A stretch of 64,000 bases of DNA from Escherichia phage BEU5: the sequence record OM632664.1, one strand, 5' to 3'. The position numbers were made by a program, and so were the translations under genes. Each line of letters begins with the position of its first letter. The first letter of the stretch is position 1. The notes under the pieces are model-generated. The model was not told the origin of the DNA, did not search any database, and saw nothing but the letters and a program-made list of their open reading frames with translations. Shown piece after piece: positions 4,126 to 50,069 of the stretch.

Positions 4126-4734
4126 ATGTCTGAAAAACTATCAGGTGGTTTTAATAACTACTATCTGGTTCAGGTAACCAACCCTCAACGTATGGAACAG
4201 CCTCCATATCAGGCCGAGTGTGAGGATATTATCCAAGCACTAAATATGACCTTTGATGAAGGGTGTCTGTTCAAGGCATTGTGGCGTAATGCTGCTGCTC
4301 GTTTAGGTAACGGTAAACCAGGTAACAATGCCGTTTATGATGCAGAGAAGATGGTTCATTATGCTAACCGTATTTTTATTAAAGAATCCGGTGGGCAGAA
4401 AAAAGAAGCAGAAGAACCAGTTTCTGAGGCTCTGAAGAAGGGTGAAGAGATTCATATGTCTCTGTCTGAATTATTCACCCTGTTAACTGGTGAAGCAGCA
4501 GAAGGTGAAGTAATGAGCCTTGCTGGTTGGCATACTCACGTACCAAACCGTTTGGGTGTTATGCCTATTGCTGTTGCAATGAGCAAAGCAGAACAAATTG
4601 ATGTAGTACGTGCCGATGGAACGACTATTACTCATGTATTTCCTCATGAGATTGACTGGTCTGATAAGATTGCCCCCTTTGCTCGAATCACTGCATGGCG
4701 TTTCAGTAACCCATCTAAGGTCGCTTCTAAATGA
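4126..4734 (+). CDS. hypothetical protein
   Basis: 202-aa ORF, tightly packed in operon. Confidence 0.55.
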   Translation: MSEKLSGGFNNYYLVQVTNPQRMEQPPYQAECEDIIQALNMTFDEGCLFKALWRNAAARLGNGKPGNNAVYDAEKMVHYANRIFIKESGGQKKEAEEPVSEALKKGEEIHMSLSELFTLLTGEAAEGEVMSLAGWHTHVPNRLGVMPIAVAMSKAEQIDVVRADGTTITHVFPHEIDWSDKIAPFARITAWRFSNPSKVASK

Positions 4735-18900: not shown

Positions 18901-21900
18901 TGGTATTAAACTCAACCATCATATCAATGGCTGGTTTCAGATTACCTTCCAGTAATTTAGTCAACTCGTCAGACATAACCTCACGAGTCATAGTATGGAC
19001 TTTAATGTCCAATGCCTGAGCCAGACCTAACTGGAATGCAGAGAAGTCTTCATTGTTCTGGTTCGATAAATCCAAAGTAGCTTTAGTAGGTAGGATAGCC
19101 TCACGAACCAGTTTGGCTGATTGAGGATTGTATTTACCTAACATCTGCATACGACCAACACGGGTCATATTATATGCATAGTGAATAGGCACAGTAGAGA
19201 TGTCTTCACTCTGTGCTCTTACCTGCTCAATGACGGAAAACAGTTGGTTGTAAGAGTCCTCTACTGAACGGTTCTTACCTTCCAGAGATTTAGCATGATT
19301 ATCATTAAGTAACTCTTTATTCAGAGTACCAGCACCCATCAGTTCGAGAATACGGTCTTTACCTAACGTCTCGTAGAATTGAACCATTGGAGTGTGTACA
19401 TAGAACTCTGTAGCCTGCTCTGCTTTCAATGCAGCCTTCTGTTCTGGAGTATTACGAACAGCAGGATTACGAAGCTGAGTATTAGCTACAGGAGGAATAT
19501 CATCACCAAAGAACATCTTCTCTGTAGGATTCACTAAAACAGCTTCTTCAATAGCAGTAGGGAAGCTATTAATTGGGTCGAAGGAATCCAGTTCAGTAAT
19601 GGTGTACAGACCAATAGTCTTCTTATTATCTGGGTCAATTTCTGACATATCCACGATGTTCTCTACAACATCAGTAGACTCTACAAATGCAGCCAGAATT
19701 TCCGCAGCCATTGCTGTAGGGATACCTTTGGTATAGCCCAATGGAGCATTTGGATTACGAGATAATCCCCAGTAAGACTCAATTTTCTGAGCCAGGGAAC
19801 TAACTGCTTCAGTGAGTGTCATACCAGTATCAAATTGCTCTACTAAACCTTCTGGCAGCAGAGCTTGGTCAATACCAGTAATAGCAGCAACATCTTTTGC
19901 ATCTTTGATAGCAGTATTGCTGGTAGCAGTAAGTCTCCACTGAAGACCTGCTAATACAGCAGTCTGTAGCAATTGCTCATTGTACTTAAAGGTATCCCCA
20001 TCCTGTTCAACGATGTTAAGTAACTTACCGCCTACCCAACGGTTGGCTTCTGTACCCTGAGCAAAACGTTTACCAACATCCTTAGTGTTAAGGAACTTAG
20101 CCAGACGGGAACGAAGAATATCAGCAATACCTTCCCCATGTTCCATGAGTTCTTTGTATCGCTTAATAACTTCCCCATTAAAAGCAGGATTAGCAACTTC
20201 TTTCTCAGTAAAGAGTTCATAACGAGCACGGGAAGACAGAGCTTGAGCTACATCTTTTAGAGGTGCTTCTGAACCAACAGTACGGGATTTCTGTTCTTCC
20301 GGTAAGGTAAAGGACAATTTGAAATAGTTCTTAATACCCTCTGCTTTAGAATCAGCAGTACCTACCAATGAGGGGTAAACAGCATCGATACCTTCTCTTA
20401 ATTCTTCTGTAACTGTGCTTTCTTTTGCAGAAGTTTCAGTTTCTTTAACAGATTCAGTAGGTTGCTTGATGGTGTCCTCATTAGTAAGGTTAACATCCTG
20501 TTTTTCAGACTGGTTCACAGGTTCTTTTATAGCCTGTGGGCTAGACTCTTTAGTAGTAGGTTCTGTTTTAACAGATTCACTAACAGGAGTCTTAGTCTGT
20601 ACAGTAGATGTAACTGGTTCCTGTTTTGTAACAGGAGTTTCTTTAACCTGATTCACGGAGTCAGCTTTCGGTTGAGAAGAAGCAACGTCTCGATTGCCTT
20701 GACGGAATGCCTTGACCACCTCAGCAGCAGGAGCGTTAAGACGTGAATCCAATGGAGTAACTTTTATATGACTGACCTTCAGTTCCGGGTAAGCCGAAGC
20801 GAGGGCATTAGCAATATCCGCTACCGTTTTCGCTTCAAGAGCAACTTGCTGGGCAAATTTAACCGACTTAGTGTCATAGGGATTGACCCCCAATCCGGTA
20901 CGGCTACGAACCCATTCTCTGTCAGCAGTAAGAGCTTGGTAGTGGACAGACTTATTCTTATCCGCATCCCCCGTAACAAGATGCTCATTCAACGCTCCAA
21001 CCTTATTCTGCATGTGCTGGGCGAACTGCATAAAGTCGTTCAGGTAAGCGGAGGCCAACTCGAAATTACCAGAGTTATACGCAGACCGAATCCTATTCGC
21101 ATGTTGCAACGCAGAGTATTGTCCTTCCTGAGTTCTGCTCTCATCCGTTTTAATCTGTTTACTCACAATGTCTTGAGGACGTAATCCAAGACGGGCAGCT
21201 TCTGCATCATATTCCCGTGCCCCCTTCAGGATTGCAGCAGCATTCTGAAGGGCAGCAATTTGGCGATTATTCAGTTTAATACGACCATCAGCAGCATGTT
21301 TAAGAACAACATTTACAGATTCTGGATTGAGCTTTTCAGGAGCTACTTCAGCAGCTAATGCTACGTTCTGCATTTCCTGTGGACTGGATTCTTCAGTCAC
21401 ATCCAAAGAACCATTCTGGGCAGATTCATTAATCATTCGATTAATAACATTCAGTGCACCAATTACTTTTGGTGTGTTCTGAATATTAGCTGTCAGATTT
21501 GTATAACGATTGAGTAACTCAATAGCCGGAGAATCTTTAGGAATGCTATCCAGTGCAGCAGGGTCACGGTTAATGAATTGCTCAAACTCTGAAACAGCAT
21601 CATACATATAAGATGCAGCTTCCATCAGTGCTTGAGGATTAGATTCATCTAATGTGTTAACTAGGTCTGCTAACTTTTGAATAACCTGTACTTGGTCAGT
21701 AGAACCAGCTACAGCATTACGAATATGCTCTGGTGCTTCCTGATAATTTTCAGGATTAAAACGAGTAGCATTCATTAAGTCAGAAACATACTGGTGTGCT
21801 GCAACTTTCTGTTCCGGAGTAGCATCAGTTGCTTCAACAGCATCACGAATAGTAACTTCTGCTTCTGGTGCTTGAGCCATAGCTTCTTGTGCTGCCTGTG

Positions 21901-23413
21901 CAACATAGTCATCAGCAACAGGAGATGCTTCTTCATTCTGCTTCATAACCCGCTCACCACGAGCTACCAAAGTGTTCTTAATAGGGGAAACAACCTTACC
22001 TGCTACACTACCAGCAGCTTTAACACCAGCCATTGTGGTACGCAATACAGGAGCAGTTGCAGCACCTGCTAAACGAGCAGCACCAGCCGGAGCCTGTACA
22101 ACACCAGCAGAACCAAAGCCATAAAGAGCACCTAAACCAGCTTGTGTACCGACACCTTTAAGCAAGTCTTGGTTCTTATCAATGTTTTGTTGCTGTGCAA
22201 TATTCTGAGCCAGTTGGCCTGTAGCACCCTGAACACCTTCTTCCACTGTTTCACGGGCAAGGTTCATACCTACAGCACCTAAAGAACCAGCACGGAAAGG
22301 AGCCATCTCAAAACGAGATACCAGAGGACCAGTTGCAGCAGCAATAGGTAATTGAATAGCAGCAGCAGTAAGACCAGTTTCAGATGCAGTCTGACGACGA
22401 GCCTGTTCTGGAGACATACCATCTTTAATATGTTGCTGATAAACAGGAGACTTCTCTAAGTCTTTAAGACTCATCTTCATAATTTCATCAGCAGTTTGTT
22501 GGTATGCACCACCAGCTTCCATTACACCAACACCAACCATACCTGGTGCAGCTCTGCCTACAGTAGAAGCAATACGAGCCAGGGACTGAGTACCAGTACC
22601 TGCATCAATAGCACCAGCCAATGCAGCACTACGAAGAGTATTTGCTGGAACAACTGCTTTACCCAGTAAAGATGCACCCTTTAATACAGGACCAGCACCT
22701 AATAGAGAACCTACCCCTTCTGCTAACCCATCAGAAATAATAGAGTCAGTTTGAGCAGCATTCTCAATTGAACCTACAAAATCACGTCCAAATTTAGATA
22801 AGGAAGCTACTATGTCATTAGTGCCTTCTTTCTTATCTGTTTGATACTGACGTTCACTCTCTACCTCACTCATTAAGTTACGAGCAGCGAAGAGCTTACG
22901 TTTATCTTGTAATGCTTGGCTTTGGGTAGCATGGACAGCATCATTAAACTTACTCAATTGTTGAGCAACAACAGCACCTGCGTCATCGTTGAGTAAGCCT
23001 GCCCCAAGAGCACCAATGCCCCCAAGGGTATTAACAAAACCAAGACCAACACCAGTAGCAATATCCCCCAGTTCTTCCCCAGGAGTTCTTGTAGTAACTG
23101 AATCATTGAATACCTGGTTCCCTGCATCAGCACGAGCGTTGATAAGTTGTAAGCCTTGCTCAACCCCATACTTATTCATGATTTGCATTGGAGTCAGATT
23201 CATGAAATCTGATTGCACTGTCCCTGGTTCAAATGCATTAGCCCCAACATTACCAGTACGGGCAGCTTGCATTTGATAAGCAGCATCAGGAGAAACAAGA
23301 GGAGTAGTGACACCTTGTTCAGCTTTCTTCTGGGCGGTTGCAGTAGAGACGTCAACTTGCTTTGCATTGGTTACGCTGTCTGCGAACCCAGCCAGTCTAT
23401 CAAATACTGACAT
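12911..23413 (-). CDS. virion-encapsidated RNA polymerase (N4 vRNAP/gp50-like), ~3,500 aa
   Basis: Single giant ORF (track 3,506 aa from TTG at 23431); ATG at 23413 with AGGAA RBS gives ~3,500 aa, the diagnostic size of the N4 vRNAP, which sits at the same boundary between middle and late genes. Confidence 0.8.
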   Translation of the reverse strand: MSVFDRLAGFADSVTNAKQVDVSTATAQKKAEQGVTTPLVSPDAAYQMQAARTGNVGANAFEPGTVQSDFMNLTPMQIMNKYGVEQGLQLINARADAGNQVFNDSVTTRTPGEELGDIATGVGLGFVNTLGGIGALGAGLLNDDAGAVVAQQLSKFNDAVHATQSQALQDKRKLFAARNLMSEVESERQYQTDKKEGTNDIVASLSKFGRDFVGSIENAAQTDSIISDGLAEGVGSLLGAGPVLKGASLLGKAVVPANTLRSAALAGAIDAGTGTQSLARIASTVGRAAPGMVGVGVMEAGGAYQQTADEIMKMSLKDLEKSPVYQQHIKDGMSPEQARRQTASETGLTAAAIQLPIAAATGPLVSRFEMAPFRAGSLGAVGMNLARETVEEGVQGATGQLAQNIAQQQNIDKNQDLLKGVGTQAGLGALYGFGSAGVVQAPAGAARLAGAATAPVLRTTMAGVKAAGSVAGKVVSPIKNTLVARGERVMKQNEEASPVADDYVAQAAQEAMAQAPEAEVTIRDAVEATDATPEQKVAAHQYVSDLMNATRFNPENYQEAPEHIRNAVAGSTDQVQVIQKLADLVNTLDESNPQALMEAASYMYDAVSEFEQFINRDPAALDSIPKDSPAIELLNRYTNLTANIQNTPKVIGALNVINRMINESAQNGSLDVTEESSPQEMQNVALAAEVAPEKLNPESVNVVLKHAADGRIKLNNRQIAALQNAAAILKGAREYDAEAARLGLRPQDIVSKQIKTDESRTQEGQYSALQHANRIRSAYNSGNFELASAYLNDFMQFAQHMQNKVGALNEHLVTGDADKNKSVHYQALTADREWVRSRTGLGVNPYDTKSVKFAQQVALEAKTVADIANALASAYPELKVSHIKVTPLDSRLNAPAAEVVKAFRQGNRDVASSQPKADSVNQVKETPVTKQEPVTSTVQTKTPVSESVKTEPTTKESSPQAIKEPVNQSEKQDVNLTNEDTIKQPTESVKETETSAKESTVTEELREGIDAVYPSLVGTADSKAEGIKNYFKLSFTLPEEQKSRTVGSEAPLKDVAQALSSRARYELFTEKEVANPAFNGEVIKRYKELMEHGEGIADILRSRLAKFLNTKDVGKRFAQGTEANRWVGGKLLNIVEQDGDTFKYNEQLLQTAVLAGLQWRLTATSNTAIKDAKDVAAITGIDQALLPEGLVEQFDTGMTLTEAVSSLAQKIESYWGLSRNPNAPLGYTKGIPTAMAAEILAAFVESTDVVENIVDMSEIDPDNKKTIGLYTITELDSFDPINSFPTAIEEAVLVNPTEKMFFGDDIPPVANTQLRNPAVRNTPEQKAALKAEQATEFYVHTPMVQFYETLGKDRILELMGAGTLNKELLNDNHAKSLEGKNRSVEDSYNQLFSVIEQVRAQSEDISTVPIHYAYNMTRVGRMQMLGKYNPQSAKLVREAILPTKATLDLSNQNNEDFSAFQLGLAQALDIKVHTMTREVMSDELTKLLEGNLKPAIDMMVEFNTTGSLPENAVGVLNTALGDRKSFVALMALMEYSRYLVAEDKSAFVTPLYVEADGVTNGPINAMMLMTGGLFTPDWIRNIAKGGLFIGSPNKTMNEHRSTADNNDLYQASTNALMESLGKLRSNYASNMPIQSQIDSLLSLMDLFLPDINLGENGALELKRGIAKNPLTITIYGSGARGIAGKLVSSVTDAIYERMSDVLKARAKDPNISAAMAMFGKQAASEAHAEELLARFLKDMETLTSTVPVKRKGVLELQSTGAGAKGKINPKTYTIKGEQLKALQENMLHFFVEPLRNGITQTVGESLVYSTEQLQKATQIQSVVLEDMFKQRVQEKLTEKAKDPTWKKGDFLTQKELNDIQASLNNLAPMIETGSQTFYIAGSENAEVANQVLATNLDDRMRVPMSIYAPAQAGVAGIPFMTIGTGDGMMMQTLSTMKGAPKNTLKIFDGMNIGLNDITDASRKANEAVYTSWQGNPIKNVYESYAKFMKNVDFSKLSPEALEAIGKSALEYDQRENATVDDIANAASLIERNLRNIALGVDIRHKVLDKVNLSIDQMAAVGAPYQNNGKIDLSNMTPEQQADELNKLFREELEARKQKVAKAKAEVKEETVSEKEPVNPDFGMVGREHKASGVRILSATAIRNLAKISNLPSTQAATLAEIQKSLAAKDYKIIYGTPTQVAEYARQKNVTELTSQEMEEAQAGNIYGWTNFDDKTIYLVSPSMETLIHELVHASTFEEVYSFYQGNEVSPTSKQAIENLEGLMEQFRSLDISKDSPEMREAYADAIATIEGHLSNGFVDPAISKAAALNEFMAWGLANRALAAKQKRTSSLVQMVKDVYQAIKKLIWGRKQAPALGEDMFSNLLFNSAILMRSQPTTQAVAKDGTLFHSKAYGNNERLSQLNQTFDKLVTDYLRTDPVTEVERRGNVANALMSATRLVRDVQSRGFNMTAQEQSVFQMVTAALATEAAIDPHAMARAQELYTHVMKHLTVEHFMADPDSTNPADRYYAQQKYDTISGANLVEVDAKGRTSLLPTFLGLAMVNEELRSIIKEMPVPKADKKLGNDVDTLLTNAGTQVMESLNRRMAGDQKATNVQDSIDALSETIMAAALKRESFYDAVATPTGNFIDRANQYVTDSIERLSETVIEKADKVIANPSNVAAKGVAHLAKLTAAIASEKQGEIVAQGIMTAMNQGKVWQPFHDLVNDIVGRTKTNANVYDLIKLVKSQISQDRQQFREHLPTVIAGKFSRKLTDTEWSAMHTGLGKTDLAVLRETMSMAEIRDLLSSFKKVKDEISTLEKEIQNQAGRNWNLVQKKSKQLAQYMITGEVGNNLLRNAHAISRLLGERITNGPVADVAAIDKLITLYSLELMNKSDRDLLSELAQSEVEGMEFSIAYMVGQRTEEMRKAKGDNRTLLNHFKGYIPVENQQGVNLIIADDKEFAKLNSQSFTRIGTYQGSTGFRTGSKGYYFSPVAARAPYSQGILQNVRNTAGGVDIGTGFTLGTMVAGRITDKPTVERITKALAKGERGREPLMPIYNSKGQVVAYEQSVDPNMLKHLNQDNHFAKMVGVWRGRQVEEAKAQRFNDILIEQLHAMYEKDIKDSNANKSQYVNLLGKIDDPVLADAINLMNIETRRKAEELFGKDELWVRRDMLNDALGYRAASIGDVWTGNSRWSSSTLDTVKKMFLGAFGNKAYHVVMNAENTIQNLVKDAKTVIVVKSVVVPAVNFLANIYQMIGRGVPVKDIAVNIPRKTSEINQYIKSRLRQIDAEAELRAAEGNPNLVRKLKTEIQSITDSHRRMSIWPLIEAGEFSSIADAGISRDDLLVAEGKIHEYMEKLANKLPEKVRNAGRYALIAKDTALFQGIQKTVEYSDFIAKAIIYDDLVKRKKKSSSEALGQVTEEFVNYDRLPGRFRGYMESMGLMWFYNFKIRSIKVAMSMIRNNPVHSLIATVVPAPAMFGNVGLPIQDNMLTMLAEGRLDYSLGFGQGLRAPTLNPWFNLTH

Positions 23414-23475
23414 AGTAGGTTTCCTATACAAACTTATATCTATTAGAAATCACACTATACCTAGTGTAAGGACGA

Positions 23476-30253: not shown

Positions 30254-31459
30254 TTACAGCGGAGCTACAGTTTTAATAAGAGCCAGACGTTCTGGACGTT
30301 TAACCAGAATACCGTAGTACCATTTGATGCTGGAGAAACCAGTTTCACCATATGGGTCATTACGGTCAGCAGTTTCTTTACCAGGCATCTTAGTCATAAC
30401 GGTAAATTTAAGTGACTTACCATCAGTCTGGAAGCCAATAGAGGTAAAGGAATCATCACCTACTACCAGCATTGGGTAAACGTCATAGTGCTCCTGACCA
30501 GATACCATAGAGGTACGGTAACCAGGGTTAGCTCCAGTAGCCTGTGCACCAGCACCTGCCCAGTGCAGCATCTCCGGAACCTGAATGATACGGAACTTAT
30601 CAATAGAACCGACTTCACCATTCATGATAGTACCTGCATCAGCATAGTGCTGAGTTTCGATAAAGGCTTTATTACCGAACAAGTCTCTCATTGCTTTCAG
30701 TTCTGGAACCAGTTCAGAACCTACATACATAACACGAGTAGCACCGATGACTTTAGTATCAATCATACGGGAACCAGTGATGATGGTAGTCTGAGTAGGA
30801 GTACGGTTCTCTGTCAGAATCTGGTCAAGACGCATCAGGTTCTTATAAGAAACGATAGACGGAGTAGAACCTTCACCAGTGATGGTGGCATCAGAAGTAG
30901 CAGCACCAGCATACAGAACAGTACCAGCAGCAGCCAGCAAGTCTTTTTGCAGTACAGCTTCAGTAATCTGAGTAGCACCATTCATCAGTTCACGGGACAG
31001 GTGTTCCATCAGGCCATCGTCAGAATCGAAATCAATAGATTCCTGAGTGAACTCATAGAAGAAGCCAAACTTGTGAATAGAACCTTCACGAGCAATACGA
31101 GTAAAACCAACACGGTTAACTCGACCGCCGTTTTCAGTCAGTAGAGGCAATTTGGAAGTAATGTTACCGATGTCTTTGCTGGAACCATACAGGTTACCGT
31201 TAACGATGGTAGCACCACTTGCATCAATACCCTGGTCATTGATGTTACGGTCATCCAGCAGAGGAACATATTCATATACCTTGATGGTCTTACCGTAATG
31301 CTTCGGCATGTTAGTTACAGAGGCCAGTGGCATGAAGTACTGCTCTTTACGGGCAGTGATGATTGCTTTCTTCAGCCAGAAGAAGGTTTGCATCTGGTCA
31401 GAGTTAGCACCATCAATACTAGATTTCTGACCGTCAGTAGGAGCGTTATAGTTCAACAT
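30254..31459 (-). CDS. major capsid protein (by position and size; N4 gp56-like)
   Basis: 401 aa; followed by a strong hairpin; sits between scaffold-like acidic protein and portal as in N4. Confidence 0.5.
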
Positions 31460-47961: not shown

Positions 47962-48327
47962 ATGAACATTCGTCCTAATGAAGTCTATGGTATCAACCTA
48001 GAGTACACTACAAACAAACCTGCTCTATTTCACTGTGGTTCCACCAATCTATTCCATGCTATGTGTGGTAATACCAAACCTCTTTACTTACCTGAATCGG
48101 ATGATACCCATGCTCTACTAGGTAACTGGTTCTTAGAAGGTAAAGACATTAGTACCATTCTTCTTGAACCAAGGAAGAAAGTGGCAATACCTACTAATGC
48201 ATGGAATAACGAAGTCATTTACTTCCTGGCACCAAAAGGCTTTGAACCAGTGGTAGAACAGAATCACTTTAATCATGCAGTTACTTTCTACTTCAGAGAG
48301 ACTTCAAAGTTATCTGCTTATAAATAA
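47962..48327 (+). CDS. hypothetical protein
   Basis: 121-aa ORF with AAGGAG RBS. Confidence 0.55.
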   Translation: MNIRPNEVYGINLEYTTNKPALFHCGSTNLFHAMCGNTKPLYLPESDDTHALLGNWFLEGKDISTILLEPRKKVAIPTNAWNNEVIYFLAPKGFEPVVEQNHFNHAVTFYFRETSKLSAYK

Positions 48328-48335
48328 GGAAAGCT

Positions 48336-48473
48336 ATGTGGTATATAACAGTTAAAGGTTTATCCGAACCAGTGATGATAGATAGCCTGGCCTTCATAGA
48401 AGTAGGTCATCCTATTCTTATAGAAGGTAAGTTGTATGAAGTTGTTAGTATTTATAAGAGATAAATAGGAAGT
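48336..48473 (+). CDS. possible small protein (45 aa), not in ORF track
   Basis: ATG preceded by AAGGA; ends TAA at 48471-48473. Confidence 0.25.
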
Positions 48474-48630
48474 CTATTAGATAGATACCCTATAATTTTT
48501 TTCTTAGTGAAAATAGTCATAGTTACTTGTGAGTTTAGTATTTGGTGGGGCTACACCCCTTACACCATAAGCACCCCCCCCGGTCTTTACTAGTGTAGCC
48601 TTAGCCTACCCCACCTTGTACACGTTACAC

Positions 48631-48650
48631 GTTGCTTCGCAACTTATGGA
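48631..48650 (+). promoter_or_regulatory. hairpin promoter candidate (N4 vRNAP early-promoter type)
   Basis: GTTGC-TTC-GCAAC (5-bp stem, 3-nt loop; template-strand loop GAA) followed by TTATGGA; a G lies 11 nt downstream of loop centre. Confidence 0.5.
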
Positions 48651-48694
48651 CATGTTGTCCGTATCTTATCAATCAACTATTGGAGGCTAATACT

Positions 48695-49021
48695 ATGACT
48701 ACTCAGGCTAACGTTCGTATGACTGTAGGAACTCTGTTGGGTACTGTTAATGAAGCAGCAACTACTGTAGCTGATACATTCGGTACTGCTACTAAAGCAG
48801 TAGGTATGCTTAATCGTTATGTAACTAAACAAGCAGATAAACAAATCATTCGTGACAAATTAGAAATGCATGAGTTTACCAATAAACTTATTGAAGAAAC
48901 TGCAATGCAAGAAGCTATTCGTCAGAAACAAATCTTAGACTTCTGCAAAGATGAACAAAACAAAGAATTGTTCTCTAATGCCTATGACCGTCTTAGCAAA
49001 ATCTTAGCAGACTCTAAATAA
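48695..49021 (+). CDS. early protein, hypothetical
   Basis: Start at ATG 48695 (GGAGG RBS) downstream of the hairpin promoter; 108 aa. Confidence 0.55.
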   Translation: MTTQANVRMTVGTLLGTVNEAATTVADTFGTATKAVGMLNRYVTKQADKQIIRDKLEMHEFTNKLIEETAMQEAIRQKQILDFCKDEQNKELFSNAYDRLSKILADSK

Positions 49022-49097
49022 TAACAAACAAATGGAGGCTCCTCGGAGTCTCCTTTTACATAGAACCGATAGTTCAATAACTATCTACTTTAAAGAT

Positions 49098-49119
49098 AAG
49101 AAGCTCCGCTTCTTTTGGA
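49098..49119 (+). promoter_or_regulatory. hairpin promoter candidate (N4 vRNAP early-promoter type)
   Basis: AAGAAGC-TCC-GCTTCTT (7-bp stem, 3-nt loop; template loop GGA) followed by TTGGAT; G at +11 from loop centre. Confidence 0.5.
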
Positions 49120-49225
49120 TGAAGTAATGCATCCAATCCTGTATGAAATCTTAACCTTTTGTCTGGGATTACTTACCGACAAAGTAGTCTCAACTAATCA
49201 AAATCAACTATCTGGAGAGTACAAA

Positions 49226-49612
49226 ATGGCTATCACTACTTTTGCTAAAACCTTTGGTCAGGCTTCTACTAAAACTGAATCCAACAATGGTTCTCGCCCG
49301 AAAGCTCAGTTCTGGATTAACGTTGGCTATGTAGCTAATGAAGGCACTGAAGATGAACGTTTCATCTCTCTGCCTACTGGTATTCCACTGGATACTCAGG
49401 AGCATCTGCCAACCAATTCCTCTAACGAAGACTTCCGTGCAATGCGTTGTGCACAGAACGATTTGTTAGACCAACTGATGGAATTTGCTAAGACTCTGGA
49501 ACCAGGTCAGGAAGGAGTTATCTCACTGCAAGTTCAACTTCGTCGAGTTAAAGAAGAAGCTCCTGCTATCTCAGCAAGTGAGAATAAATATGCTCGTAAA
49601 CTGACTTTCTAA
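49226..49612 (+). CDS. early protein, hypothetical
   Basis: Start at ATG 49226 (GGAGAG RBS); the track start at 49115 would precede the predicted transcription start. Confidence 0.5.
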
Positions 49613-49620
49613 TCTCTATA

Positions 49621-49650
49621 GGACTACCTTCGGGTAGTCCTTTTTAATTT
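49621..49650 (+). terminator. rho-independent terminator
   Basis: Stem GGACTACC/GGTAGTCC with loop TTCG, then TTTTTAATTTT. Confidence 0.75.
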
Positions 49651-49754
49651 TAACTATCTAAATACTAAAGTAGAGATTTTGACCCTTTTCGACGAAGGGA
49701 TACTAAAAAGTAATGGATAGTTTGAGCAGATGTTTTAGAAGAAGGAGTATACAG

Positions 49755-50069
49755 ATGCATCCTCTTATAAAACGATTCCTGATGGACTATCAGGAGTGGT
49801 TAGATAATGGAGCCAGTGAACCTCATTACCTGTTTGATAGGGGTAGTGGACTGTGTGTTCAACTAGGCAAGTATCTTAGAAGACAGCCAATCAGTGAAGA
49901 AACAGTAGATGCTCTGTGTAAGAGCTTTACTCATTTACTTCCTGATAATGATACAAATCTACCATTCAATGTAGATGTTCTCGACTACATGATGGAGTGT
50001 TCTGATGGAAGATGTCATCTGAACCAAAGTCGAATTAATTGGATTAAGAGTCAGTTGGAGAGTAAGTAA
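49755..50069 (+). CDS. hypothetical protein
   Basis: ATG 49755 with AAGGAG RBS; 104 aa. Confidence 0.5.
   Translation: MHPLIKRFLMDYQEWLDNGASEPHYLFDRGSGLCVQLGKYLRRQPISEETVDALCKSFTHLLPDNDTNLPFNVDVLDYMMECSDGRCHLNQSRINWIKSQLESK

What the first reader, a model, noticed from the sequence alone, without database searches (positions are those of the whole stretch)
48631..48650. Hairpin promoter candidate 1: 5-bp stem, 3-nt loop, G start 11 nt downstream
This matches the known architecture of N4 virion-RNAP early promoters, which are template-strand hairpins with a 3-nt purine-rich loop and a start site about 11 nt from the loop centre. All three candidates in this window share a TT-x-TGG element right after the stem.
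Basis: partly seen in the sequence, partly recalled or inferred. Interest (0 to 1): 0.5.

Follow-up and report, generated by a model that had tools for sequence, protein, structure and literature searches.

The report
Known phage N4 early promoter P1

Summary
Window 48631-48643 is GTTGC-TTC-GCAAC (5-bp stem, 3-nt loop), followed by TTATGG, and the G at 48648 lies 11 nt from the loop centre.

The window is a circularly permuted N4-type coliphage genome. It is 100% identical to phages BEU44/BEU13 and 98.5% to N4 over 48000-50000. N4 genome base 1 corresponds to window 48543, so the hairpin sits about 90 nt from the physical left end, upstream of gp1.

The published 81-nt "native N4 P1" template used for virion-RNAP run-off transcription matches the window's minus strand 48599-48679 with no mismatch. 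Every published determinant is present on the template strand: -11A/G, -10G, -8G, +1C, the G:C loop-closing pair, and the loop's 3'A and 5'G.

A determinant-based scan finds exactly three sites in 64 kb, against 0.095 expected. These are P1, P2 (+1 at 49117) and P3 (+1 at 53106). All three face rightward in the early region.

The window also encodes the 3,500-aa virion RNAP with all nine named promoter-contact residues. Orthologous P1 sites in relatives keep the stem through two compensatory pair changes.

Verdict: interpretation supported, already known, low interest.

The parts
48631..48643 (+). P1 promoter hairpin: arms 48631-48635 GTTGC and 48639-48643 GCAAC, loop 48636-48638 TTC. Transcription runs rightward. 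The functional hairpin forms on the minus (template) strand as 5'-GTTGC-GAA-GCAAC-3'. Positions -17 to -5.
   Evidence: folds as a 5-bp/3-nt hairpin on both strands. Exact reverse complement of the published P1 hairpin GTTGCGAAGCAAC.
48634..48640 (+). GC-rich heptamer GCTTCGC centred at -11. On the template strand it carries -13G:-9C (loop-closing pair), -12A, -11A, -10G and -8G.
   Evidence: Determinants are listed in PMC4496689.
48644..48647 (+). Four-nucleotide single-stranded spacer (-4 to -1, TTAT; template AATA) between the stem base and the start site.
   Evidence: PMC4496689 describes these bases as a molecular ruler that sets the start eight nucleotides downstream of -8. T at -3 and -1 is conserved in 26 of 27 related sites.
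48648..48648 (+). Transcription start +1 (G in the RNA, C in the template). The transcript begins GGACAUG.
   Evidence: Position follows from the loop centre at 48637 being -11. +1C is a recognised determinant. G at +1 in 26/27 and G at +2 in 27/27 related sites. The 5' end was not mapped here.
48648..48694 (+). Inferred 47-nt 5' leader of the gp1 mRNA, with a Shine-Dalgarno GGAGG at 48682-48686.
   Evidence: gp1 coordinates transferred from the N4 annotation using the alignment.
48695..49021 (+). gp1, the first early gene and a cofactor of N4 RNAPII. The mechanical ORF from TTG at 48632 only over-extends it across the hairpin.
   Evidence: Role of gp1 from PMC4496689 and PMC13434306.
49034..49053 (+). 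Terminator-like GC-rich hairpin followed by a T-run after gp1. Probable end of the P1 transcript (inferred).
49098..49117 (+). P2 promoter: 7-bp stem AAGAAGC / GCTTCTT, loop TCC (49105-49107), +1 G at 49117, immediately upstream of gp2.
   Evidence: The core of the published P2 oligo matches 49100-49118 on the minus strand exactly.
53087..53106 (+). P3 promoter: 7-bp stem AAGCTGC / GCAGCTT, loop TCC (53094-53096), +1 G at 53106, upstream of the RNAPII subunit gene at 53144.
   Evidence: Identical in N4 with +1 at nt 4565. Gene context.
12911..23431 (-). Virion RNA polymerase gene (3,506-aa mechanical ORF from TTG; 3,500 aa match), encoding the enzyme that reads P1-P3.
   Evidence: Full-length match to PDB N4 vRNAP chains. 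K114, R119, W129, K267, K268, K849, K850, D901 and R904 (mini-vRNAP numbering) are all present.
48543..48630 (.). [quoted passage not shown] The whole 158 bp queried (48543-48700, this stretch plus P1 and the gp1 leader) matches at 75-80% identity in three other genera.

Best explanation
This is promoter P1 of a coliphage N4-type genome. It is the first of three early promoters used by the virion-packaged, single-subunit RNA polymerase (vRNAP, gp50) that is injected with the DNA.

Mechanism as established for N4 in the literature: the left end of the genome enters the cell first. Host DNA gyrase supercoils it, and the inverted repeat at -17 to -5 extrudes as a cruciform. E. coli SSB melts the non-template hairpin and leaves the unusually stable template-strand hairpin (5'-GTTGC-GAA-GCAAC-3') intact.

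vRNAP then binds that hairpin. It stacks W129 on the -11 purine, contacts -10G and -8G, and its beta-intercalating hairpin fixes the double-strand to single-strand junction between -5 and -4. The four-base spacer places template +1C in the active site.

RNA starts with G at window 48648 and runs rightward through gp1 (48695-49021), probably ending at the terminator-like hairpin at 49034-49053. gp1 and gp2 are cofactors of the phage's second polymerase, which is expressed from P3, so P1 helps start the transcription cascade.

Shown here: sequence identity to P1, all determinants present, position and orientation, the cognate enzyme with its contact residues, and conservation with compensatory stem changes.

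Taken from the literature or inferred: extrusion, the SSB role, the exact 5' end in this isolate, and the termination point.
For: (1) The window is 98.5% identical to N4 and 100% to BEU44/BEU13 around the site. N4 nt 1 = window 48543.
(2) The published 81-nt native P1 run-off template matches minus strand 48599-48679 with 0 mismatches. The P1 hairpin oligo used for cryo-EM carries the same 13-mer.
(3) The template strand shows -13G:-9C, -12A, -11A, -10G, -8G and +1C. These are exactly the determinants listed in PMC4496689.
(4) The heptamer with a stem of at least 5 bp occurs 3 times in the window, against 0.095 expected. All three are on the + strand in the early region with G at +1. They lie just upstream of gp1, gp2 and the RNAPII gene, and the same three sites occur in N4.
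(5) vRNAP is encoded in the window and has all nine named contact residues.
(6) The orthologous site was found by homology of the whole 158-bp end region, not by motif. Between lineages the stem changes from GTTGC/GCAAC to CATGC/GCATG, two pairs changed on both sides, while the heptamer and TATGGACATGT stay fixed.
(7) KP8 annotates the orthologous site as early promoter P1.
Against: No transcript data exist for this isolate, so the 5' end at 48648 is transferred from N4.

Generic thermodynamic folding does not single the hairpin out (z = -1.64; 19 of 200 shuffles fold as well). Plain 5-bp/3-nt hairpins are common in the window (112). The case therefore rests on the specific determinants and on identity to P1, not on the hairpin alone.

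The original mapping papers (Haynes and Rothman-Denes 1985; Glucksmann 1992; Dai 1998; Davydova 2007; Gleghorn 2008) were not held in the library. P1's identity rests on the 2015 review and on two 2026 structural papers.
Confidence: 0.97

Rival explanations
1. The hairpin is primarily, or additionally, part of a genome-end cis element. It would serve terminus recognition for packaging or priming of DNA replication at the ends, and its conservation would reflect that role rather than transcription of gp1 alone.
For: It lies only about 90 nt from the physical left end. The whole 158-bp end region is conserved at 75-80% across Enquatrovirus, Gamaleyavirus, Kaypoctavirus and Moovirus. N4 has 390-440-bp direct terminal repeats (PMC3715699), so a second P1 copy should sit at the right end. 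In G7C the right terminal repeat does carry one.
Against: P1 is an experimentally used vRNAP promoter. P2 and P3 share the same determinants far from the ends. Nothing examined here links the hairpin to packaging or replication. This reading could only add to the promoter role, not replace it.
Confidence: 0.06
2. It is a chance inverted repeat with no function in this particular phage.
For: 112 perfect 5-bp/3-nt hairpins occur in the window, and the folding z-score is only -1.64.
Against: It is identical to the experimentally defined P1. The determinant motif occurs 3 times against 0.095 expected, all at early gene starts. There are compensatory stem changes in orthologues. The cognate polymerase is intact.
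Confidence: 0.01
3. It is a host sigma-70 promoter region, or an intrinsic terminator or RNA-level hairpin.
For: It is a GC-containing stem-loop in an intergenic stretch.
Against: The consensus scan lists no sigma-70-like site and no terminator-like site at 48600-48660. The stem is followed by TTATGGAC, not a T-run. [quoted passage not shown]
Confidence: 0.01

Closest known systems
Coliphage N4 early promoter P1 (vRNAP hairpin promoter)
   Same: Identical sequence over at least 81 nt, including hairpin, spacer and start. Same distance from the genome left end, same downstream gene gp1, and same cognate enzyme.
   Different: Nothing within the promoter. The window's phage differs from N4 nearby: a C-run/indel at 48574-48583 and one base in the gp1 ribosome-binding site.
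N4 early promoters P2 and P3 (window +1 at 49117 and 53106)
   Same: Same heptamer frame, same -12/-10/-8/+1 determinants, same TT-N-TGG initiation region, and the same 11-nt spacing from loop centre to start.
   Different: P1 has a 5-bp stem that cannot extend (a C/T mismatch flanks it), whereas P2 and P3 can form 7 bp. P1 has -11A (loop GAA), whereas they have -11G (loop GGA). P1's predicted hairpin is the weakest: -3.7 against -5.3 and -6.7 kcal/mol.
Predicted early promoters of other Enquatrovirinae (KP8 P1-P4 annotated; sites found here in G7C, PhAPEC7, Moo19, pSb-1, AN24P2, U1G)
   Same: Same heptamer, stem-loop geometry, start-site GG and order along the early region.
   Different: All 26 sites in these relatives have loop TCC (template -11G). 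Only the N4-type P1 has TTC. The stem sequence differs, with compensation, in the Gamaleyavirus/Moovirus P1. Some genomes have four sites.
T7-type single-subunit RNAP promoters
   Same: They are read by a homologous polymerase using the same three motifs: specificity loop, intercalating hairpin and upstream recognition element. They cover -17 to about +6.
   Different: T7 promoters are recognised as double-stranded sequence. This one is recognised as an extruded single-strand hairpin and needs supercoiling and SSB.

Membership tests
N4 vRNAP hairpin early promoter | Inverted repeat giving a 5-7-bp stem and a 3-nt loop centred at -11 | tested here: met
   GTTGC-TTC-GCAAC at 48631-48643. Predicted fold is a 5-bp/3-nt hairpin on both strands.
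N4 vRNAP hairpin early promoter | GC-rich heptamer centred at -11, with template -13G:-9C closing pair, loop 3'A (-12) and loop 5'G (-10) | tested here: met
   Non-template GCTTCGC at 48634-48640, i.e. template 3'-CGAAGCG-5'. Requirement stated in PMC4496689.
N4 vRNAP hairpin early promoter | Template-strand contacts -11 purine (A/G), -10G, -8G and +1C | tested here: met
   -11A (48637 T on +), -10G (48638 C), -8G (48640 C), +1C (48648 G).
N4 vRNAP hairpin early promoter | [quoted passage not shown] | tested here: met
   +1 is at about nt 106-107 from the N4 left end and 47 nt upstream of gp1.
N4 vRNAP hairpin early promoter | Cognate virion RNAP present with its promoter-recognition residues | tested here: met
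   ORF 12911-23431(-) matches PDB vRNAP chains over 3,500 aa. K114, R119, W129, K267, K268, K849, K850, D901 and R904 are present.
N4 vRNAP hairpin early promoter | Sequence identity to an experimentally transcribed promoter | tested here: met
   The 81-nt native P1 run-off template from PMC13434306 equals minus strand 48599-48679, 0 mismatches.
N4 vRNAP hairpin early promoter | Stem maintained by compensatory change, with contact bases invariant in relatives | tested here: met
   Orthologous P1 stems are GTTGC/GCAAC versus CATGC/GCATG. The heptamer is invariant except -11 Y. The orthologues were found by blastn of the whole end region.
N4 vRNAP hairpin early promoter | Rifampicin-resistant transcript 5' end at +1 in vivo and in vitro | not testable with these tools
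   Reported for N4 P1-P3 at nucleotide resolution (PMC4496689). There are no RNA data for this isolate.
N4 vRNAP hairpin early promoter | Gyrase/supercoil-dependent hairpin extrusion and activation by E. coli SSB | not testable with these tools
   Literature only.
Intrinsic (rho-independent) terminator | GC-rich stem followed by a T-run | tested here: not met
   The stem is followed by TTATGGAC. It is not listed by the terminator scan, which does list 49034, 49620 and 51063.
Sigma-70 promoter | -35/-10 hexamers with 16-18-nt spacing on the + strand upstream of gp1 | tested here: not met
   No site between 48300 and 48990 on the + strand. The region has fewer sigma-70-like sites than shuffles (8 against 16.6).

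The most novel reading that the evidence does not exclude
P1 lies inside the terminal direct repeat, so virion DNA would carry a second P1 copy about 300-350 nt from the right end, pointing off the end. This is inferred for N4 from its 390-440-bp repeats and seen directly in the G7C record.

The most novel reading not excluded is that vRNAP initiation at these terminal P1 copies also primes or activates DNA replication, or processes the ends. On that reading, the N4-specific -11A loop (GAA, against GGA at all 26 sites in the seven relatives) would tune P1 for this separate role.

The idea that vRNAP is needed for N4 replication is my recollection of older genetics. It was not checked here.
Probability: 0.08. 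Interest if true: 0.4.

Novelty: already known. Interest (0 to 1): 0.07.

Why it matters
It matters mainly as annotation. It fixes the physical left end of this circularly permuted record at 48543, identifies the three vRNAP promoters and their start sites, and corrects the over-long mechanical ORF that runs across the hairpin. It also shows that the first-stage reader can recognise a non-canonical, structure-dependent promoter from raw sequence. Biologically the element is a textbook case: a DNA-hairpin promoter read by an injected polymerase. It has been mapped, mutagenised, and solved by crystallography and cryo-EM, so no open question is advanced.

Tried and rejected
(1) I tried to read the primary papers (PMC317147, PMC1855362, PMC20060, PMC2639713). 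None is held, so I relied on the 2015 review and on sequence strings found in two 2026 papers.

(2) Generic hairpin statistics and the folding z-score do not distinguish the site, so I set them aside as evidence.

(3) I looked for a fourth promoter, because PMC13492108 speaks of P1-P4. A relaxed loop/stem scan and a 2-mismatch motif search gave only sites outside the early region or on the wrong strand, at about the chance rate (5 extra against 4.3 expected). I rejected them.

(4) The heptamer alone is not enriched (4 observed, 4.1 expected). The fourth copy, at 30259-30265 on the minus strand, has only a 3-bp stem inside a late gene, so I rejected it.

(5) Covariation counted across all 30 motif-selected sites would be circular, because the stem was part of the selection. 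I used only the homology-defined P1 orthologues for that argument.

(6) The MAFFT alignment of the orthologues put a gap inside the 5' arm. I therefore read the register from the fixed-frame extraction.

Full report
**What is in the sequence**

Window 48631-48650 reads GTTGC TTC GCAAC TTATGG A. It has a perfect 5-bp stem (48631-48635 and 48639-48643) and a 3-nt loop (48636-48638). On the minus strand the loop is 5'-GAA-3', all purines. The loop centre is 48637.

Both strands are predicted to fold into this hairpin as single-stranded DNA: -3.7 kcal/mol for the minus strand and -3.3 for the plus strand.

All three carry TT-N-TGG directly after a 5-bp stem. In the second and third, the first TT can pair with an upstream AA, giving 7-bp stems.

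**Is it more than chance?**

The hairpin alone is not. The window holds 112 perfect 5-bp/3-nt hairpins, against 74 +/- 9 in dinucleotide-preserving shuffles. They are scattered along the whole window. The P1 fold energy has z = -1.64, and 19 of 200 shuffles fold as well.

The specific form is far beyond chance. The GC-rich heptamer GCTYCGC occurs four times on both strands, about as often as expected (4.1). With a stem of at least 5 bp around it, it occurs three times against 0.095 expected, with a maximum of 1 in 200 shuffles. All three sites are on the plus strand between 48.6 and 53.1 kb, and each has G at the position 11 nt from the loop centre. The fourth heptamer (30259-30265, minus strand) has only a 3-bp stem and lies inside a late gene.

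**Where the window comes from**

Megablast of 48000-50000 gives 100% identity to Escherichia phages BEU44 and BEU13 and 98.5% to coliphage N4 (EF056009/NC_008720). The N4 match begins at N4 nt 1 = window 48543. The right end of the N4 record (gp72, then 77 nt) abuts it on the other side. The window is therefore a circularly permuted record of an N4-type genome, and the junction of the physical ends is at 48542/48543.

The hairpin lies at N4 nt 90-102, in a stretch identical in N4. It is 47 nt upstream of the gp1 start codon (ATG at 48695, preceded by GGAGG at 48682-48686). The mechanical ORF starting at TTG 48632 is just gp1 over-extended. The hairpin is intergenic.

**Identity with the experimentally defined promoter**

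The review of the N4 polymerases (PMC4496689) states several points:
[quoted passage not shown] - vRNAP specifically recognises -11A/G, -10G, -8G and +1C on the template strand.

Reading the window's minus strand 3' to 5' gives -13G, -12A, -11A, -10G, -9C, -8G and +1C. Every determinant is met.

A full-text search for the hairpin string found it in PMC13434306. That paper's cryo-EM "P1" oligo ends in GTTGCGAAGCAAC. Its run-off transcription template is described as the P1 promoter with 30 bp of native sequence on either side. That 81-mer matches the window's minus strand 48599-48679 with no mismatch.

The core of the P2 oligo used in PMC13492108 matches 49100-49118 on the minus strand exactly. 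The same three sites occur in the N4 record, with +1 at nt 107, 576 and 4565.

**The enzyme**

The 3,506-codon ORF at 12911-23431 (minus strand) matches PDB chains of the N4 virion RNA polymerase over all 3,500 residues. With an offset of 1003, which places mini-vRNAP residue 1 at vRNAP 998 and allows for six extra codons from the upstream TTG, the residues named in the review as promoter contacts are all present: K114, R119, W129, K267, K268, K849, K850, D901 and R904. Neighbouring offsets do not give this result.

**Conservation**

A blastn search with the 158 bp from the left end through the gp1 start finds 78 phage records, in Enquatrovirus, Gamaleyavirus, Kaypoctavirus and Moovirus. Most of them match at 75-80% identity. 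In KP8 the orthologous site is annotated, and published, as early promoter P1.

I examined eight further records: the N4 record itself and seven relatives from other species and genera. In all eight, the determinant scan finds three or four sites in the early region, in the same order.

The P1 orthologue was located by homology of the whole end region, not by motif. It keeps the heptamer and the downstream TATGGACATGT. Its outer stem changes from GTTGC/GCAAC (N4, KP8, G7C) to CATGC/GCATG (PhAPEC7, Moo19, pSb-1, AN24P2, U1G). That is two base pairs changed on both sides.

Positions that the scan did not constrain are also nearly invariant over 27 sites: T at -3 (26), T at -1 (26), G at +1 (26) and G at +2 (27). 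The N4-type P1 is the only site with loop TTC (template -11A). All 26 sites in the seven relatives have TCC (-11G). This agrees with the "-11A/G" rule.

**Mechanism**

The steps are established for N4 in the literature and were not tested here:
1. The left end enters the cell first.
2. Gyrase-driven negative supercoiling extrudes the inverted repeat.
3. E. coli SSB melts the non-template hairpin but leaves the template hairpin. That hairpin is unusually stable because of a sheared G:A pair and base stacking in the loop.
4. vRNAP binds the hairpin, which unlocks its active site.
5. The beta-intercalating hairpin sets the junction between -5 and -4.
6. The four-base spacer acts as a ruler, so synthesis starts eight nucleotides downstream of -8.

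In the window this predicts an RNA starting GGACAUG at 48648 and covering gp1. A terminator-like hairpin with a T-run at 49034-49053 probably ends it. P2 then serves gp2, and P3 serves the RNAPII subunit genes at 53144 and 53965.

**Rivals**

Four rival readings were considered:
- A sigma-70 promoter is excluded by the consensus scan.
- An intrinsic terminator is excluded by the same scan and by the sequence after the stem.
- A chance repeat is excluded by identity to P1 and by the motif statistics.
- An additional role as a genome-end element cannot be excluded. The site is about 90 nt from the terminus, in a block conserved across genera.

On the last point, N4 has 390-440-bp terminal repeats, so a second copy should lie at the right end. 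The G7C record shows such a copy in its right terminal repeat. That would add to the promoter role, not replace it.

**Verdict**

The element is N4 promoter P1, one of the best-characterised phage promoters, so it is already known and of low interest. What remains untested for this isolate is only the physical 5' end of the transcript.

Noticed in passing
window 48542/48543: The physical ends of the N4 genome are joined here: the right end after gp72 and the left end at N4 nt 1. The record is a circularly permuted assembly, and its terminal repeat is collapsed to one copy.
   Followed up: partly
window 48574-48583: A poly-C tract about 30-40 nt from the left end differs between this phage (C8 then GG) and N4 (one more C, then TG). 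KP8 differs again. It looks like a hypervariable homopolymer in the terminal region.
   Followed up: no
L011 450-465 (G7C record about 71849-71864): The right-hand terminal repeat of phage G7C carries a second copy of the P1 motif. Because N4's repeats are 390-440 bp, N4-type virion DNA should likewise have a P1 copy pointing off the right end.
   Followed up: partly
whole window; PMC13492108 Discussion: A 2026 paper speaks of four early promoters, P1-P4. Only three sites in this window and in the first 5.5 kb of N4 meet the determinants. KP8 and U1G do have four. The fourth N4 site may be the right-end copy of P1, or a degenerate site.
   Followed up: partly
L004 about 500-520 (G7C): A hairpin with the full heptamer and a 5-bp stem (AAACGC-TCC-GCGTT) has C, not G, at the position 11 nt from the loop centre, and no GG. 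It may be a shifted-start or inactive promoter.
   Followed up: no
window 49034-49053, 49620-49641, 51063-51088 (+): Three strong terminator-like hairpins with T-runs follow gp1, gp2 and a later early gene. The early region has 8 such sites against 3.0 +/- 2.1 expected, and fewer sigma-70-like sites than expected (8 against 16.6).
   Followed up: no
window 49117-49129: The P2 start at 49117 leaves only a 10-nt leader (GGAUGAAGUA) before the annotated gp2 ATG at 49127. An ATG-AAG-TAA mini-ORF begins at +3. This is an unusually short leader for translation initiation.
   Followed up: no
window 48687: The gp1 ribosome-binding site reads GGAGG here and GGAGA in N4, the only substitution between P1 and the gp1 start.
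   Followed up: no
whole window: Perfect 5-bp/3-nt hairpins are about 50% more frequent than in dinucleotide shuffles (112 against 74 +/- 9) and are spread evenly along the window. No common motif was seen apart from P1-P3.
   Followed up: partly
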